Shown piece by piece: positions 8,207 to 53,297 of a stretch of 64,000 nt of DNA. The stretch covers positions 492,088 to 556,087 of the forward strand of contig OZ241840.1 of assembly GCA_965202645.1 (NCBI GenBank), in the 5' to 3' direction. Position numbers and translations under genes: made by a program. Below the pieces are notes generated by a model. That model was not told the DNA's origin and searched no databases. It worked only from the letters and a program-made list of their open reading frames with translations. This stretch comes from Bdellovibrionales bacterium (GTDB taxonomy: Bacteria > Bdellovibrionota > Bdellovibrionia > Bdellovibrionales > UBA1609). How positions within the stretch are numbered: position 1 is the first letter of the stretch; every line of letters starts with the position of its first letter.

Positions 8207-8436
8207 TGTCGGCTCTATTGGCGGGGGTTATGGGACGCGGGGCGTGGCAAATGCTTCCCCCGTCTATTGGCTGGCTGAAAATGGCAGAATGTATGGGGGT
8301 CGGACGCGCGGCTGGTCGTGGCAAATGCTTTCCCCGTCTATTGGCTGGCTGAAAATGGCAGAATGTATGGGGGTCGGACGCGCGGCTGGTCGTGGCAAAT
8401 GCTTTCCCCGTCTATTAGTTGGCTTAAAATGGCGTC
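8207..8436. repeat. 74-bp tandem repeat, about 3 units
   Basis: GTGGCAAATGCTTTCCCCGTCTATTGGCTGGCTGAAAATGGCAGAATGTATGGGGGTCGGACGCGCGGCTGGTC starts at 8244, 8318 and 8392. The last unit decays into the 3' end of the DoxX gene. Confidence 0.9.
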
Positions 8437-8887
8437 ATTTGTGGGACAGCCTCTTTTTTAACAGGCTGTCCAGGCTGTATTTTCCTCCTCCGGCCAATGT
8501 GAATAAGAGGAAAAACAGGGCATACAGCAAAGCCAGCTCCTTCGCTTTAAATGGATCTGGCCAATGAGTGATAAAGGCGGCCACTAACATTGTAAATAAA
8601 AGGCTAAAGCCTGCCCATCGGCTAAACAGCCCTAAAGCCAGGAGAATGGCTCCAAAAAACTCAGCGCCTGTGACAAGAAAAAGGCTCAGTGTGGAGCCTA
8701 AACCCAGCGGGTTGGGAAAGTGAGGGGCGATATTTGAAAAATTCATTAGCTTTCCATAGCCGTGAGAGCATAGCATAATACAAGAGACCGCCACTCTGAC
8801 AAATAAGTATGACCAGTCCAGCAAACGGCTTTCCATGGCCCGCCCAAAATTTAAGCCCAGGAGCTTTAAAGCTTTGTGTTTATTCAT
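8435..8887 (-). CDS. DoxX-family membrane protein
   Basis: About 150 aa with 4 predicted TM segments. The LL.RV....M..HGY.KL motif is typical of DoxX. Confidence 0.8.
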   Translation of the reverse strand: MNKHKALKLLGLNFGRAMESRLLDWSYLFVRVAVSCIMLCSHGYGKLMNFSNIAPHFPNPLGLGSTLSLFLVTGAEFFGAILLALGLFSRWAGFSLLFTMLVAAFITHWPDPFKAKELALLYALFFLLFTLAGGGKYSLDSLLKKRLSHK

Positions 8888-33063: not shown

Positions 33064-34179
33064 TTAAAACAATTTTCTCTTTTTTTCTGAAATGGATTCC
33101 CGTTTGATGTCCGCAATTTCCCTCAAAAGCTCCTCTTCTCTTTTTTTAAGCTTTTTAGGCAGATCTACATGGATTTCACATATCAAATCGCCCCTTGTGG
33201 GATTATTTAAGCTGGGCAGGCCCCGATGAGGGAGGCGAATTTGCGCTCCGGGCTGGGTTCCGGGGGGGATTTTGACAGTCTCTTTCTCTGTCAATCCCCG
33301 CAGAGATTTTTCAGTCCCTAAAAGAGCTTGCAGATAAGAGATGGAAATAGACGCTCTGAGATCCCGCCCATCTTTTACAAACAGGGAATGGGGCTTTAAG
33401 CGAACTTCCATATAAAAATCACCGGGCGGCGCGCCGGAAGGGCCAGGCTCCCCTTCGCCCTGAAGGCGAAGTTTTGTCCCACTGCTGACGCCGGGCGGGA
33501 TTTTCACAGTCAAAGCTCTTTTTTTCCGGACAATCCCTTTGCCGTAACAATTTCCGCAAGGGCTTTCTAAAACTGAGCCTTGCCCTCCGCAGGAAGAGCA
33601 GGCTCTGGCTACAGAAAAAAAGCCTTGTTGAGAGATATGCTGCCCGCGGCCCTTGCATTGGCGGCAGGCTGTCCTTTTAGTTCCCGGCTGAGCGCCGGAG
33701 CCTTTGCAAATAGAGCAGGAGCTATGGCCGTGAAAAGAGATTTCCTTTTCCGCCCCGGTCAGAGCCTCTTTTAAGTCTAATTTCACCTCATGGTAAAGAT
33801 CAGCCCCTTTTTTGACCCTTTCAAAGTTAGAGGAGGAAAACAGCTCCTCAAATCCGCTAAAGCCTCCTCTAAAGCCTCTGCCAAAAAAGTCAGAAGCGCC
33901 AAAAATATCTTTAAAAGCCTCAAAAATATCCCCCACATCCTGAAAGCCTCCCCCTCCATTAAAGGCGCTGTGGCCGAAGCTGTCATATTTTCGCCTTTTT
34001 TTGGGATCGCCTAAAACTTGATAAGCCTCAGAGGCCTCTTTAAACTTCTCCTCCTTGCCCTTATCTCCTTTGTTTCGATCCGGATGATATTTAAAGGCCA
34101 GCTTTCTATAAGCTTTTTTAATCTCATCCTGAGAGGCGGTTTTAGAGACAGACAGAATGTCATAATAATCTTTAGGCAT
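33064..34179 (-). CDS. dnaJ: Chaperone DnaJ
   Basis: J-domain MPKDYYDIL...KYHPD, G/F region, and four CxxCxGxG zinc-finger motifs. The start is set at MPKDYY (ORF open to 34194). Confidence 0.95.
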
Positions 34180-34372
34180 AAAAATTTCCCTCAAGCTTTC
34201 TCAATCTCATCCTGAGAGGCGGTTTTAGAGACAGACAGAATGTCATAATAATCTTTAGGCATAAAAATTTCCCTCAAGCTTTCTCAATCTCATCCTGAGA
34301 GGCGGTTTTAGAGACAGACAGAATGTCATAATAATCTTTAGGCATAAAAATTTCCCTCAAGCTTTTGAGCCT
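34111..34372. repeat. 83-bp tandem triplication covering the dnaJ RBS, start codon and first 20 codons
   Basis: ATCTCATCCTGAGAGGCGG starts at 34121, 34204 and 34287. Each upstream unit encodes [23 protein letters not shown]. Confidence 0.95.
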
Positions 34373-34843: not shown

Positions 34844-34934
34844 GCCCGAGTGGTGGAATTGGTAGACACACAGGACTTAAAATCCTGCGGTTTTTATTAA
34901 AGCTGTGCCAGTTCAAGTCTGGCCTCGGGCACCA
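34844..34934 (+). tRNA. tRNA-Leu (anticodon TAA), 91 nt with a long AT-rich variable arm
   Basis: Acceptor GCCCGAG/CTCGGGC, anticodon stem CAGGA/TCCTG with loop CT-TAA-AA, T-arm GCCAG-TTCAAGT-CTGGC, encoded CCA. Confidence 0.9.
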
Positions 34935-36011: not shown

Positions 36012-36281
36012 TAATTTGGGGTTTATTCAATCCATGTCCCGAAAAGGGAGCTGTTATGACAACGCTTATTGTGAAAGCTGTTTTCTTTGCTCAAACGGGA
36101 ATTAGGCTGTAAAGTGTATTCTGGAATTAATGAGGCAAGAGAGAAGATTTTTGAGTGGATTGAAGGGCGGCATAACACTCAACATCTCCCTTCCGCTTTG
36201 GGCTATAAAAGCCCTTTGGAATTTGAAAAAAGGATACAACGCAATATGAAAAAGACTCATAACTTTAATCCGCTTTTTTAG
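36012..36281 (+). pseudogene. IS3-family transposase (OrfB) C-terminal remnant with an internal frameshift
   Basis: IQSMSRKGSCYDNAYCESCF in one frame, then LLKRELGCKVYSG...AREKIFEWIEG.HN......ALGYKSPLEFE in another. These are classic IS3 DDE C-terminal motifs. Confidence 0.7.
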
Positions 36282-36401
36282 CGCGATCCAGTGTAAAATT
36301 TTCCGATAAACGGGCCTTTTTTAAAATTTTCTTGTATTTTATTGATTAAAGCCGCATAAAGCGCTATTAAGCAAACCATAAGCAAAGGAAGGACAAGAGA
36401 A

Positions 36402-36776
36402 ATGCGTGCCACATTTAAAGCCATCAGTTTGACGATAATTTTATTATTGAGCAGTGGCTCGCTCTTTGCGCACGCGCATCTTCCACAGCCCGCTCCCAGC
36501 TATTGGGGGGGGATTCCGATATGCCCCAACCCCTATACCCACAGCTCCATTTGCCACACTTATTCCGGCCAGGCCTGCTCCCTTTATATAAGCTATTATC
36601 AGCCGTCTTGGTTTTCCGCTTGTTTGAGCAGCGGTTTTTTTCATGCCTGTCTAAATGCCCCCGCCTTTCCCGCCCCCCTGGTCCAAAACGCCTGTTATTT
36701 AAGGGGAACTCCCTGCGTTTGCTCTTTTGGCCTGATTAACGGCTATTACTACTATGAGCCGGGATTTGTGAATTAA
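36402..36776 (+). CDS. Small secreted cysteine-rich protein (hypothetical)
   Basis: Signal peptide MRATFKAISLTIILLLSSGSLFA and cysteine-rich mature part. Contains a G8 tract at 36496-36503. Confidence 0.45.
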   Translation: MRATFKAISLTIILLLSSGSLFAHAHLPQPAPSYWGGIPICPNPYTHSSICHTYSGQACSLYISYYQPSWFSACLSSGFFHACLNAPAFPAPLVQNACYLRGTPCVCSFGLINGYYYYEPGFVN

Positions 36777-36856
36777 AAACTGCTGGGATCAGATCCGCCT
36801 CAAATATAAAACCCTTTACACGCGTGACAATTATGAGAAACGGCCCATCTGGAGCT

Positions 36857-37265
36857 GTGAATCTTAAATTGCGGGATCAGCGGCTGGTTTTTATTGTCGG
36901 CCCTGCGGCGGCCGGAAAAACAGACTGGGCGCTCCAATGGGCGGAGCGGGACTCAGCCTGTATTTTAAATAGCGATGTTTCTCCAAACTCCACAATGGGA
37001 AGTGAATCTTAAATTGCGGGATCAGCGGCTGATTTTTATTGTCGGCCCTGCGGCGGCCGGAAAAACAGACTGGGCGCTCCAATGGGCGGAGCGGGACTCA
37101 GCCTGTATTTTAAATAGCGATGTTTCTCCAAACTCCACAATGGGAAGTGAATCTTAAATTGCGGGATCAACGGCTGGTTTTTATTGTCGGCCCTACGGCG
37201 GCCGGAAAAACAGACTGGGCGCTCCAATGGGCGGAGCGGGACTCAGCCTGTATTTTAAATAGCGA
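36857..37265. repeat. 145-bp tandem repeat (2 full units plus a partial third) duplicating the miaA 5' end including the P-loop
   Basis: GTGAATCTTAAATTGCGGGATCA starts at 36857, 37002 and 37147. Units are near-identical. The upstream copies end in ...ILNSDVSPNSTMGSES*. Confidence 0.95.
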
Positions 37266-38064
37266 CAGCATTCAAGCTTATAGGGATTTAAACATTGGAT
37301 CAGCCAAACCGGATTTTACAAAATATCCCTCTATAGCTTTCCATCTCTTTGATGAGGTTTCCGCCCCCCAAATCTGGACAGCCGGAGATTTTAGGCGAAA
37401 AGCCCTTGAGGTTTTATCCCAAAAGCTCCCTCAAAAAAAAGTTTTTGTTGTGGGAGGAAGCGGGTTTTATATACAGGCTTTAGAAAGGGGAATGTATCCT
37501 CCGCCGGCTGTGTCAAACAGCGCTGTCCGGCGCCTGCGGGAAATAGCCAAACAAAAAGGCTTAGGCTTTCTCTATCAGGACTTGCGGGCCAAAGATCCGG
37601 AGAGGGCTAGGCAAATCAGCCCTAAAGATCAATATAGAATTATCCGCTCTTTGAGCTTGATAGAGAGCGGGGGGAGGCCTTTCTCTCAAATCAAAAAAGA
37701 GTTTAAGGAGCAAAAGCTCCCCTGGCCCTATCTCAAAGCGGGCTTAGCCCTTCCCAAAGAGGAGCTTTTAAAAAAGGTGAGGAAAAGAGCAAAAAACATG
37801 ATCCGAAAGGGCCTCATAGAGGAGATTGAGGCATTAGTCAAAAAAGGCTTTAGAGCCTGGCGGCCATTAAGCAGTGTGGGCTATAAAGAGGGTCTGCTTT
37901 ATCTGGACGGAAAAATTAAAAAAGAGGAGCTTGTGGATAAAATTGTCTCCAGCACAATGGCTCTGGCTAAAAAGCAAAACACCTGGCTTAAAAGAGACAA
38001 AAGCATCAAATGGCTGGATGGAAATCTATCCGCTTTAAAGGTTTACAAAGAAATTTTTAAGTGA
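37120..38064 (+). CDS. miaA: tRNA dimethylallyltransferase
   Basis: VFIVGPTAAGKT (P-loop), ILNSDSIQAYRDLNIGSAKP, and the typical MiaA length. The start is ambiguous (ATG 37120 lies in junction sequence; GTG 37147). Confidence 0.93.
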   Translation: MFLQTPQWEVNLKLRDQRLVFIVGPTAAGKTDWALQWAERDSACILNSDSIQAYRDLNIGSAKPDFTKYPSIAFHLFDEVSAPQIWTAGDFRRKALEVLSQKLPQKKVFVVGGSGFYIQALERGMYPPPAVSNSAVRRLREIAKQKGLGFLYQDLRAKDPERARQISPKDQYRIIRSLSLIESGGRPFSQIKKEFKEQKLPWPYLKAGLALPKEELLKKVRKRAKNMIRKGLIEEIEALVKKGFRAWRPLSSVGYKEGLLYLDGKIKKEELVDKIVSSTMALAKKQNTWLKRDKSIKWLDGNLSALKVYKEIFK

Positions 38065-51566: not shown

Positions 51567-52370
51567 TTAAACAGGGACATTCAGCTCCCTTAAACACTGG
51601 TTGAGAGAGATTTTTTTATCTGTGCTCTCTGATCGCCGGCCAATAATCAAAGCGCAGGGAGTTTGATAAACTCCCGCCGGAAACCTCTTGTTTTTGTGTC
51701 CCGGAATAACCACAGAGTTTTTAGGGACTTCCCCTATGTGCTCTTTAGCCGGGCTTTGAGTCACATCCACAATTTTTACGCTTTTTGTGAGAATAACGCC
51801 CGCCCCAATCACAGCGTTTTCCCGGACACAAACCCCCTCCACAATGACAGAGCGGCTTCCTAAAAAAACATGATCCTCAATGACAACCGGCTGAGCCTGT
51901 ATAGGCTCCAGCACTCCGCCAATCCCCACGCCCCCGGAGACATGAACCCCCTTTCCCACTTGGGCGCAAGATCCCACAGTGGCCCAAGTGTCAATCAATG
52001 AGCCTTCATCCACATAAGCTCCAATGTTGACATAAGACGGCATAAGCACAGAGTTTTTAGCGACATAGCCGGCATAGCGGACAAGAGCTTGAGGCGCAAC
52101 GCGAACCCCCTCCCCGCCAGTCCATTTTTTAAGGGGGATTTTATCAAAAAAGTTAAAATCACCGGAGACAAACTCCCTCATTTTTGTCATCTTAAAATAA
52201 AGGAGGATGGCGCCTTTCACCCATTCATTGACCCGCCACTCTCCCTTAATTTTTTCACACACACGAAGCTCCCCCGCGTCCAAACCAGCCAGAGCGCCTT
52301 TAACCGCCCGCTCCGTTTCAGGGGTTATTTCATTATGTGACAAGGCATGATAAATAAGCTCCGGCTTCAT
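51567..52370 (-). CDS. dapD: 2,3,4,5-tetrahydropyridine-2,6-dicarboxylate N-succinyltransferase
   Basis: VLMPSYVNIGAYVDEGSLIDTWATVGSCAQVGKGVHVSGGVGIGGVLEP is nearly identical in pattern to E. coli DapD. Confidence 0.95.
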   Translation of the reverse strand: MKPELIYHALSHNEITPETERAVKGALAGLDAGELRVCEKIKGEWRVNEWVKGAILLYFKMTKMREFVSGDFNFFDKIPLKKWTGGEGVRVAPQALVRYAGYVAKNSVLMPSYVNIGAYVDEGSLIDTWATVGSCAQVGKGVHVSGGVGIGGVLEPIQAQPVVIEDHVFLGSRSVIVEGVCVRENAVIGAGVILTKSVKIVDVTQSPAKEHIGEVPKNSVVIPGHKNKRFPAGVYQTPCALIIGRRSESTDKKISLNQCLRELNVPV

Positions 52371-52404: not shown

Positions 52405-52728
52405 GCAGGCTCTTCAGTCTTCTCTATATTGACTCAAGCTAAACAGATAAGCCAACTGATAATACAGCTCTTCAGCTTGAGCCTTCCCCATATTGACTCA
52501 AACTACACGGCTAAGCCAACTGATAATACAACTCTTCAGCTTGAGCCTTCCCCATATTGACTCAAACTACACAGCTAAGCCAACTGATAATACAGCTTTT
52601 CAGCCTAGACCTTCCCTATATTGACTCAAACTACACAGCTAAGCCAACTGATAATACAGCTTTTCAGCCTAGACCTTCCCTATATTGACTCAAACTACAC
52701 AGCTAAGCCAACTGATAATATGAACTGA
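52405..52728. repeat. 64-bp tandem repeat x5 immediately upstream of dapD
   Basis: TATTGACTCAA starts at 52427, 52491, 52555, 52619 and 52683. Confidence 0.95.
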
Positions 52729-52868: not shown

Positions 52869-53297
52869 GTGAAGGGAAAACCTAAAATCCAGAGAAAAAA
52901 GCCAGCTTTCAGCCATGACAGCCTCTTTAAGCATTTCTATTCTGATCCAGATCTGGCGCGGGAATTGCTTCAGCTCATCTTTTCCAAAAAGGAGGCTCAA
53001 GCCTACGACTTAAAAAAGCTGAAAATAGAAAAAGACACTTTTGAGGGGAAAAGAGCGGATCTTATCATCTCAGTCCCTTTTAAAGCGAACCCTAAAATGA
53101 AACTGGAGCTTTTAATCCTTTTAGAGCACAAAAGCCATTATGATAAATATCTTTTTGAGCAACAGCTGGATTATCAAATTTTAGTCCGCAAACACACTAT
53201 TCGGCAAAAAGGCTATCCCCAGCCCATAATGCCGGCGCTGTTTTATCAGGGAAAACAGCCCTTAAAATGGAAGAAATCCCTGCAGGAGGAGGCTTAA
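52869..53297 (+). CDS. Rpn/YhgA-like (PD-(D/E)XK, transposase_31) family protein, truncated
   Basis: SHDSLFKHFYSDPDLARELL...ADLIISVP......LLEHKS matches the Rpn N-terminal nuclease core. At 142 aa it is about half my recollection of the family length. Confidence 0.65.
   Translation: MKGKPKIQRKKPAFSHDSLFKHFYSDPDLARELLQLIFSKKEAQAYDLKKLKIEKDTFEGKRADLIISVPFKANPKMKLELLILLEHKSHYDKYLFEQQLDYQILVRKHTIRQKGYPQPIMPALFYQGKQPLKWKKSLQEEA

What the first reader, a model, noticed from the sequence alone, without database searches (positions are those of the whole stretch)
36857..37265. The miaA 5' end, including the P-loop, is tandemly amplified (145 bp, about 2.8 units), giving two truncated decoy ORFs ahead of the real gene
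The units begin at 36857, 37002 and 37147. Each full unit holds 119 bp of miaA coding sequence (VNLKLRDQRL.FIVGP.AAGKTDWALQWAERDSACILNSD) plus a 26-bp junction segment (TGTTTCTCCAAACTCCACAATGGGAA) not present in the continuing gene. Since 145 is not a multiple of 3, the two upstream copies end ...VSPNSTMGSES*. The likely ancestral start (ATGAGAAACGGCCCATCTGGAGCT, 36833) is now 290 bp upstream of the functional copy, which must use ATG 37120 (inside junction sequence) or GTG 37147. This is the same architecture as at dnaJ, 3 kb away.
Basis: seen in the sequence. Interest (0 to 1): 0.55.

Follow-up and report, generated by a model that had tools for sequence, protein, structure and literature searches.

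The report
Tandem triplication of miaA's 5' end
The start of the tRNA-modification gene miaA has recently been copied head-to-tail three times in a small-genome Bdellovibrionales bacterium, an ordinary kind of replication/recombination scar that this lineage makes often and that leaves the last, intact copy able to work.

Summary
A 145-bp unit is repeated 2.8 times at 36857..37265, with 3 substitutions among the copies. It covers the P-loop end of a full-length miaA. Two upstream copies give truncated ORFs that end ...VSPNSTMGSES*.

The interpretation needs correcting. In 75 of 84 related loci mutL directly precedes miaA, and in the closest relatives the junction reads TAA-N-ATG. Each unit here keeps that junction as TAA-A-TTG. 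The real start is therefore most likely the in-unit TTG (37159 in the intact copy), not ATG 36833, ATG 37120 or GTG 37147. Because 145 = 1 mod 3, each truncated ORF stops at that TAA, 1 nt before the next TTG.

miaA has been separated from mutL, which is intact elsewhere in the same genome. The array sits at that rearrangement breakpoint.

The dnaJ array is a clean microhomology-mediated duplication. The miaA array is not, because its 26-bp junction has no detectable source.

A close relative carries the same kind of duplication at the mutL 5' end. This clade has about 2.3 % tandem-repeat content, against 0.03 % in more distant Bdellovibrio.

Verdict: a real, recent and probably neutral duplication, and a new member of a known kind. 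Only one assembly exists, so copy number is unverified.

The parts
36857..36975 (+). Unit 1, segment C (119 bp): 12 nt of ancestral mutL-stop/miaA-start junction, then the first ~36 codons of miaA; P-loop reads GPAAAGKT
36976..37001 (+). Junction segment J, copy 1 (TGTTTCTCCAAACTCCACAATGGGAA), found only between units; origin unknown
37002..37120 (+). Unit 2, segment C; GPAAAGKT and a private Val>Ile change
37121..37146 (+). Junction segment J, copy 2, identical to copy 1
37147..37265 (+). Unit 3, segment C, continuous with the rest of miaA; keeps the Thr (GPTAAGKT) that is invariant in the 14 relatives read
36865..36871 (+). TAA-A-TTG, homologous to the relatives' mutL stop / miaA start (TAA-N-ATG); repeated at 37010-37016 and 37155-37161
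36869..37012 (+). Truncated ORF 1 (47 aa from TTG; up to 62 aa if started at GTG 36824), ends at the TAA of unit 2
37014..37157 (+). Truncated ORF 2 (47 aa from TTG; 60 aa from ATG 36975), ends at the TAA of unit 3, 1 nt before TTG 37159
37159..38064 (+). Intact miaA (301 aa from TTG), followed by yicC and gmk as in relatives
36777..36856 (+). Flank U, where relatives have the mutL 3' end; no detectable mutL remnant; contains GGAG (36851-36854), the only SD-like element ahead of unit 1
34110..34365 (-). Sister case: dnaJ ribosome-binding site + ATG + 23 codons, 83 bp x 3.1, AAGCTT(G/A) microhomology at both ends

Best explanation
This is a recent, probably neutral or slightly deleterious tandem duplication of the miaA 5' end. 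It arose at, or next to, the breakpoint of the rearrangement that separated miaA-yicC-gmk from mutL. A first illegitimate event produced C-J-C, two 119-bp copies joined by a 26-bp insert of unknown source. Unequal homologous recombination between the copies then added the third unit. The array is tolerated because every unit carries the gene's own translation start (TTG, preceded by the ancestral stop TAA), so the last unit still begins an intact MiaA. Because 145 = 1 mod 3, ribosomes that start in an upstream unit stop at the TAA just 1 nt before the next TTG. This recreates the stop-start arrangement that relatives have between mutL and miaA, and it may pass ribosomes on by termination-reinitiation. 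Shown: the anatomy, the homology of the stop-start junction, the loss of mutL adjacency, and the recurrence of such duplications in the clade. Inferred: the order of events, neutrality and reinitiation.
For: Array anatomy and identity. Intact gene: full Pfam IPPT match. P0001, the single 100 %-identical database protein, starts at TTG 37159. mutL lies directly upstream of miaA in 75 of 84 related loci, and L082/L083/L084 read TAA-N-ATG. The window has no mutL or remnant, but the same 2,207,895-bp contig encodes an intact 606-aa MutL, P0140. MAFFT puts the in-unit TAA on the mutL stop and the TTG on, or 2 codons before, the relatives' ATG. SD scoring favours the TTG positions over ATG 36833, 36975 and 37120. 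Copies 1 and 2 share Ala at a P-loop position that is Thr in the 14 relatives read. This fits relaxed constraint on the upstream copies and a two-step history, and is hard to explain as an assembly artefact. The same kind of event occurs at dnaJ in the window and at mutL in an independent assembly, L082 (274 bp x 2). Tandem-repeat load is 2.2-2.3 % in the window and the close clade, versus 0.03 % in long contigs of distant Bdellovibrio. Published values are E. coli 0.38 % and E. ruminantium 6.3 % (PMC3287509). Microhomology-mediated tandem duplication followed by expansion is described as the general route to tandem repeats (bioRxiv 10.64898/2026.02.28.708716).
Against: Only one assembly of this organism exists, so neither the copy number nor the array itself is confirmed by reads. 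J has no identifiable template, so the first step does not fit the simple microhomology model and its mechanism is unknown. The left edge of the repeat coincides within 2 nt with the start of homology to the mutL-miaA junction. That needs a single complex event, a later deletion, or chance. The junction homology itself rests on only ~11-15 nt. No promoter was identified. Reinitiation and neutrality are untested. The shared Ala/Thr difference is a single site.
Confidence: 0.7

Rival explanations
1. Adaptive amplification. After miaA lost mutL, and with it the operon's transcription and stop-start translational coupling, copies of the 5' end were selected because they restore or raise MiaA expression. 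They could do this through a chain of small ORFs that deliver ribosomes to the TTG, or through a promoter created at the junction.
For: The array sits exactly where the native upstream context was lost. Unit 1 has no upstream ORF ending at its TAA, whereas units 2 and 3 do. J supplies an SD-like GGGAAG at the same distance as GGAG in U. The J-preceded start regions are predicted to be less structured (z about 0) than unit 1 (z -1.9). Tandem duplications that activate poorly expressed genes are reported in bacteria (titles and abstracts of PMC6614815 and PMC11111574, listed).
Against: There is no sigma-70-like promoter on the + strand in 36200-37400. The structure difference is weak (8 of 200 shuffles). 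The same genome and clade make many tandem arrays in intergenic and 3' regions where this logic does not apply, so a high background rate explains the array without invoking selection.
Confidence: 0.15
2. Assembly artefact: the array, or its copy number, was created by the long-read assembler or polisher, and the real genome has one unit.
For: There is a single assembly and no reads are available. No exact protein or 29-mer match was found in other collections. All three inter-copy differences are G/A transitions, a class also produced by some consensus errors (own knowledge).
Against: The C|J|C junction contains 26 bp found nowhere else in the window, and assemblers do not invent such sequence. 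The copy-specific differences are patterned: the conserved Thr is kept only in the intact copy, and Ala is shared by copies 1 and 2. Arrays in the window range from 94 to 98 % identity. A comparable 5'-end duplication exists in an independent assembly from another sample. Short-read assemblies are known to lose tandem-repeat units rather than gain them (PMC7343930).
Confidence: 0.07
3. Functional upstream products: the 47-62-aa P-loop peptides act as decoys or regulators, or the array is a phase-variable contingency locus controlling miaA.
For: The upstream ORFs are open and have start codons and weak SD-like elements.
Against: A change in unit number cannot switch the intact copy on or off, because that copy carries its own start and its frame does not depend on the units upstream. 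The peptides stop after about 36 MiaA residues, which is only the first ~16 % of the domain. They carry Ala at an invariant Thr. Relatives have nothing similar at miaA. The ORFs are not called as genes in the protein collection.
Confidence: 0.04

Closest known systems
Microhomology-mediated tandem duplication (MTD) followed by expansion into a tandem repeat (bioRxiv 10.64898/2026.02.28.708716; PMC8639346)
   Same: Both are head-to-tail copies of a short single-copy segment that then grow by unequal recombination. The neighbouring dnaJ array (3 x 83 + 7 bp, AAGCTT arms) and the L082 mutL duplication (274 bp, CGG arms) fit this model exactly.
   Different: The miaA array has a 26-bp non-templated or foreign insert at the junction and no microhomology, so its founding event is not a clean MTD.
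Ehrlichia ruminantium long-period tandem repeats of variable copy number (Collins et al. 2005, doi 10.1073/pnas.0406633102, cited in PMC3287509 and PMC7343930; its content on duplicated and truncated genes is from my own recollection of the abstract)
   Same: Both are small genomes with many 60-300-bp tandem arrays. TRF rows per Mb are 156 in the window versus about 133 (201 rows in 1.516 Mb). Some arrays duplicate and truncate gene ends.
   Different: This is an unrelated phylum (Bdellovibrionota versus Rickettsiales). The fraction covered is lower (2.2 % versus 6.3 %). In E. ruminantium the repeats lie mostly in non-coding regions (PMC7343930). Copy-number variability is not demonstrated here.
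Translational coupling by termination-reinitiation at adjacent stop/start codons, as at the mutL-miaA boundary of the relatives (TAA-N-ATG)
   Same: Each truncated ORF stops 1 nt before the next in-unit TTG (TAA-A-TTG), the same geometry as in the relatives.
   Different: Here the upstream 'gene' is a frame-shifted fragment of miaA itself. Coupling is inferred from geometry only.
Phase-variable contingency loci / VNTRs in coding 5' ends
   Same: Both involve a repeat array at a gene's 5' end whose unit length is not a multiple of 3.
   Different: The unit is 145 bp rather than 1-9 bp. The start codon lies inside each unit, so a change in copy number does not shift the functional frame.

Membership tests
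MiaA, tRNA dimethylallyltransferase (Pfam PF01715 IPPT) | Full-length match to the IPPT domain | tested here: met
   E 2.1e-58, profile positions 1-243 of 243 for the ORF ending at 38064; 57-76 % identity over 96-100 % of its length to Bdellovibrionales MiaA
MiaA, tRNA dimethylallyltransferase (Pfam PF01715 IPPT) | N-terminal P-loop G-x-T-x-x-G-K-T/S | tested here: met
   Unit 3 reads GPTAAGKT. Units 1 and 2 read GPAAAGKT, losing the Thr that is present in the 14 relatives read
MiaA, tRNA dimethylallyltransferase (Pfam PF01715 IPPT) | Conserved neighbourhood mutL-miaA-yicC-gmk in this order of bacteria | tested here: not met
   yicC and gmk follow miaA, but mutL is absent upstream. It is present upstream in 75 of 84 related loci, and an intact copy lies elsewhere in this genome (P0140). 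This concerns context, not membership of the enzyme family
Long-period tandem repeat array | At least 2 head-to-tail copies with high identity, far above chance | tested here: met
   145 bp x 2.8, 98 %, TRF score 797; alignment
Microhomology-mediated tandem duplication (MTD) | Array length = n x unit + a short microhomology, with no inserted bases at the junction | tested here: not met
   409 = 2 x 145 + 119. J (26 bp) is not 'start of D + end of U' and has no template in the window. The feature is met for dnaJ (256 = 3 x 83 + 7) and for L082 mutL
Phase-variable contingency locus | Gain or loss of a unit shifts the reading frame or promoter spacing of the functional gene | tested here: not met
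   The start codon (TTG, or GTG) lies inside every unit, so the frame of the last copy is independent of unit number
Phase-variable contingency locus | Copy number varies within populations | not testable with these tools
   Single assembly, no reads
Translationally coupled gene pair (termination-reinitiation) | Upstream stop within a few nt of the downstream start | tested here: met
   TAA 37155-37157, then A, then TTG 37159; the same at 37010-37016. Relatives read TAA-N-ATG
Translationally coupled gene pair (termination-reinitiation) | Downstream translation depends on upstream translation | not testable with these tools
   Needs reporter or ribosome-profiling experiments

The most novel reading that the evidence does not exclude
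A clade of small-genome (1.3-2.5 Mb) Bdellovibrionales has a strongly elevated rate of short tandem duplication. Duplications that copy a gene's start region (dnaJ, miaA, mutL) are retained because they rebuild translation initiation: chains of mini-ORFs ending 1 nt before the next start relay ribosomes to genes that lost their operon context. Under this reading, 5'-end amplification is a recurrent repair route for expression after rearrangement, not just a scar.
Probability: 0.12. Interest if true: 0.55.

Novelty: new member of a known kind. Interest (0 to 1): 0.3.

Why it matters
Taken alone, this is an ordinary tandem duplication. It has three modest uses. First, it is an annotation trap: the longest ORF (ATG 37120) and the upstream ATG 36833 are both probably wrong starts, and two P-loop mini-ORFs could be miscalled as genes. 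Second, together with dnaJ and the mutL case in a relative, it shows that an uncultured small-genome Bdellovibrionales clade carries roughly 6 times the tandem-repeat load of E. coli and about 70 times that of more distant Bdellovibrio. That points to a lineage-specific difference in replication or recombination fidelity which long-read metagenomes now make visible. Third, the stop-1 nt-start geometry recreated by a 3n+1 unit is a natural test case for how translational coupling can survive a rearrangement.

Tried and rejected
(1) Independent assemblies. Exact-protein look-ups for YicC, two MiaA versions, P0001 and P0140 all returned nothing. A 29-mer of the unit had 0 hits in the metagenome contigs.

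(2) Loss of mismatch repair as the cause of the repeat load. Rejected, because an intact MutL (P0140) lies on the same 2,207,895-bp contig.

(3) The 607-aa ORF downstream of gmk as a relocated mutL. Rejected, because it is a gamma-glutamyltranspeptidase.

(4) J templated from C, U or D, or from an inverted copy of U. The best local scores are no better than shuffles (p 0.11-0.6).

(5) J as ancestral upstream sequence, prompted by the 'PxW' resemblance to the N-terminal extensions of P0003 and P0029. Those extensions are the mutL 3' end read in another frame. J and U align equally poorly with the mutL tail.

(6) An older degenerate 'copy 0' at 36768-36791. Not significant (62 of 500 shuffles).

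(7) The inverted match between U and C (12 of 13, p about 0.013). It is not used in the predicted minimum-energy fold, so it was left as a weak note.

(8) The shared AAGCTTATAG near the ends of both arrays as a recombination signal. AAGCTT occurs at the expected frequency (67 versus 65.9 +/- 8.5).

(9) A first nhmmer profile of the junction was mis-anchored and was redone.

(10) Rfam found only tRNAs and no RNA family in the array. The promoter and terminator scans gave nothing above shuffles.

(11) The truncated ORFs are not present as called proteins in the 15-billion-protein collection.

Full report
OBSERVATION

Tandem Repeats Finder reports one array at 36857..37265 with period 145, 2.8 copies, 98 % matches and score 797. 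I aligned the three units together with 47 nt of left flank and 26 nt of right flank. Identity begins exactly at 36857, 37002 and 37147, and ends at 36975, 37120 and 37265.

Each full unit has two parts. The first is a 119-bp segment, here called C. The second is a 26-bp segment, here called J (TGTTTCTCCAAACTCCACAATGGGAA), which occurs only between copies. J has no other match in the 64-kb window at up to 3 mismatches, with 0 expected by chance.

The copies differ at three positions, all G/A. Copy 2 has ATT for GTT. Copy 3 has CAA for CAG, which is synonymous. Copy 3 also has ACG (Thr) where copies 1 and 2 share GCG (Ala), so the P-loop reads GPTAAGKT in copy 3 and GPAAAGKT upstream.

The ORF that runs to 38064 is a complete MiaA: Pfam IPPT, E 2e-58, profile positions 1-243 of 243. 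yicC and gmk follow it.

ORGANISM AND RELATIVES

The best matches among species-representative genomes are uncultured Bdellovibrionales. Many are chromosome-level MAGs of 1.3-2.5 Mb. The highest MiaA identity among them is 64-65 %.

In the large protein collection, one protein (P0001) is 100 % identical over 301 aa. It lies on a single contig of 2,207,895 bp and comes from NCBI and ENA. Its cluster has one member on one contig. The next relatives are 72-76 % identical (P0002-P0006).

No other assembly of this organism was found.

THE TRUE START AND THE ANCESTRAL CONTEXT

In the closest relatives MiaA begins MKPLVFIVGPTAVGKT. In 75 of 84 related loci the mutL C-terminus lies directly upstream of miaA. 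In L082, L083 and L084 the DNA reads ...GGCCGAATCACT-TAA-N-ATG-AAACCTCTTGTTTT... Here TAA is the mutL stop, one nucleotide follows, and ATG is the miaA start.

The repeat unit in the window begins GTGAATC-TTAA-A-TTG-CGGGATCAGCGGCTGGTTTT. MAFFT places the in-unit TAA (36865-67, 37010-12, 37155-57) on the relatives' mutL stop. It places the TTG (36869, 37014, 37159) on, or two codons ahead of, their ATG.

Shine-Dalgarno pairing energies were computed with the conserved 16S tail, which I assumed for this organism. ATG 36833, GTG 36824 and ATG 36975/37120 show no pairing (dG >= 0). The TTG positions have GGAG (in U, -5.6 kcal/mol) or GGGAAG (in J, -4.9 kcal/mol) 11-14 nt upstream. The only database gene call, P0001, starts at TTG 37159.

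Three conclusions follow:
- The ancestral start lies inside the unit.
- Every unit carries its own start.

FRAME GEOMETRY

145 = 3 x 48 + 1. Translation that begins at the TTG of unit n therefore runs into the next unit one frame off, and stops at that unit's TAA, exactly 1 nt before its TTG. This recreates the TAA-N-start geometry that relatives have between mutL and miaA.

A chain of termination-reinitiation steps could therefore carry ribosomes from unit 1 to the intact gene. This is inferred from the geometry and has not been shown. Unit 1 has no upstream ORF ending at its TAA, because that frame is open from 36772 but contains no start codon (read).

REARRANGEMENT

The window holds no mutL and no recognisable remnant of one (tblastn, best E 2-8). 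The same genome does encode a full-length MutL elsewhere: P0140, 606 aa, 73 % identical to L082 MutL, with the tail ...YPLSRLERDFGRQT, on a contig of 2,207,895 bp. So miaA-yicC-gmk and mutL were separated by a rearrangement, and mismatch repair was not lost.

Several features now lie upstream of miaA: an unassigned 124-aa ORF with a signal-peptide-like N-terminus (36402-36776), a weak integrase-core C-terminal remnant (36087-36281, E about 0.007) and a tRNA (34844-34931).

Homology to the relatives' junction starts at about 36859. The repeat starts at 36857. The duplication edge and the rearrangement breakpoint therefore coincide within 2 nt. The possible explanations are one complex event, a later deletion that removed a first J, or chance. 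The data do not decide between them.

HOW THE ARRAY AROSE

The dnaJ array on the minus strand (34110-34365) is 3 x 83 + 7 bp and has AAGCTT(G/A) at both breakpoints. Each unit holds the GAGGG ribosome-binding site, the ATG and 23 codons, so the upstream copies encode [23 protein letters not shown]. That is a textbook microhomology-mediated tandem duplication followed by expansion (preprint 10.64898/2026.02.28.708716).

The miaA array is different. 409 = 2 x 145 + 119, so the founding structure was C-J-C. J is not the 'start of the right flank plus end of the left flank' expected from a plain duplication. It is also no more similar to C, U or D than shuffled sequence.

The substitution pattern suggests two steps. 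Copies 1 and 2 share the derived Ala, and copy 3 keeps the invariant Thr. This fits a first duplication followed by unequal recombination that added a unit. It also fits constraint acting on the last copy only.

A LINEAGE HABIT

The window has four arrays with period >= 60 bp in 64 kb: 8243-8433, 34110-34365, 36857-37265 and 52419-52720. One lies between convergent genes and one between divergent genes, so gene 5' ends are not the only target.

Tandem-repeat coverage was measured with the TRF settings of PMC3287509:

| Sequence set | Tandem-repeat coverage | Source |
|---|---|---|
| This window | 2.23 % | |
| 19 loci from the close small-genome clade | 2.33 % | |
| The remaining loci, mostly short-read | 0.20 % | |
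| 11 loci on long contigs of more distant Bdellovibrio | 0.03 % | |
| E. coli (published) | 0.38 % | PMC3287509, |
| Ehrlichia ruminantium (published) | 6.3 % | PMC3287509, |

L082 comes from an independent assembly of a relative with 72 % MiaA identity. It carries a 274-bp x 2.0 duplication comprising 208 bp of upstream sequence plus the first 23 codons of mutL, with CGG microhomology. This gives a truncated 36-aa ORF ahead of the intact gene. That is a third instance of the same architecture, found in different data, and it argues against an assembler artefact.

WHAT IT DOES

Nothing indicates a function for the array or for the 47-62-aa P-loop fragments:
- They cover only the first ~16 % of the domain.
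- They carry Ala at an invariant Thr.
- They are absent from relatives.
- They are not called as genes in the protein collection.

A change in unit number cannot switch miaA on or off, because the start lies inside each unit. No Rfam family, promoter-like site or terminator-like site stands out.

The start region of unit 1 is predicted to be somewhat more structured (z -1.9) than the J-preceded ones (z about 0). J also offers an SD-like GGGAAG. An expression benefit after the loss of coupling to mutL is therefore possible, but the support is weak.

VERDICT

The array is real as far as one assembly can show. It is recent and most likely a neutral by-product of a high tandem-duplication rate in this clade. 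It is tolerated because the unit contains the gene's own stop-start junction.

It is a new member of a known kind, namely tandem duplications that copy and truncate gene ends, as in E. ruminantium. It has two unexplained details: the origin of J, and the coincidence of the array's edge with the rearrangement breakpoint.

Interest is modest, and I score it 0.3.

Noticed in passing
window 34110-34365 (- strand): dnaJ ribosome-binding site + ATG + 23 codons repeated 3.1 times (83 bp, 98 %). It is a clean microhomology duplication (AAGCTT G/A at both ends). The upstream copies encode a 23-aa J-domain fragment that ends at a TGA overlapping the next unit's GAGGG.
   Followed up: yes
L082 3673-4223 (ENA ERZ25072854, contig ctg59995_28x_l): 274-bp x 2.0 tandem duplication (96 %) of the mutL promoter region and first 23 codons in a close relative, leaving a truncated 36-aa ORF ahead of intact mutL. 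This is the same architecture in an independent assembly.
   Followed up: yes
window and loci L001-L084: Tandem-repeat load is clade-specific: about 2.3 % of sequence in the small-genome clade and in the window, versus 0.03 % in long contigs of more distant Bdellovibrio. The load is uneven among genomes; L010, L015 and L082 carry most of it.
   Followed up: partly
window 8243-8433: 74-bp x 2.6 array (96 %) in the spacer between two convergent genes, starting right after the stop of the 150-aa ORF 8435-8887 (- strand). It contains an internal 37-bp sub-period.
   Followed up: no
window 52419-52720: 64-bp x 4.7 array (94 %) in the spacer between divergent genes (51567-52370 on the - strand, 52869-53297 on the + strand), that is, in a likely promoter region.
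   Followed up: no
window 34844-34931, 36087-36281, 36402-36776: Between dnaJ and miaA lie a long-arm tRNA, a weak integrase-core (rve_2/rve_3) C-terminal remnant, and an unassigned 124-aa ORF with a signal-peptide-like N-terminus and a good SD. This looks like an insertion or rearrangement zone replacing the mutL found in relatives.
   Followed up: partly
proteins P0036, P0049, P0057, P0059, P0063, P0070, P0077 (MiaA relatives): Several Bdellovibrionales MiaA proteins carry 40-90-aa low-complexity, charged insertions right after the conserved GMYP motif. The window's MiaA does not.
   Followed up: no
window 36844-36856 vs 36931-36942; J 36988-36999: The motif CTCCA(N0-2)ATGGG occurs inside C, inside J in the same orientation, and inverted just upstream of unit 1 (12 of 13 complementary to the copy in C, p about 0.013). 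It is not used in the predicted minimum-energy fold.
   Followed up: partly
L081 3100-3160 (Logan DRR466689, MiaA 76 % identical): In the closest relative found, miaA is also not preceded by mutL. It overlaps the stop of a PreP-type M16 peptidase gene (TGATG). The mutL-miaA linkage has therefore been broken more than once, or early in this sub-clade.
   Followed up: no
L018 7034-7215 and 11695-11885; L015 7124-8610; L010 407-903, 7798-8079: Further long-period arrays occur next to miaA in relatives: a 72-bp x 2.5 array in the miaA-yicC spacer, an in-frame 72-bp x 2.6 array near the N-terminus of another ORF, and a 204-bp x 7.3 array overlapping long minus-strand ORFs.
   Followed up: partly
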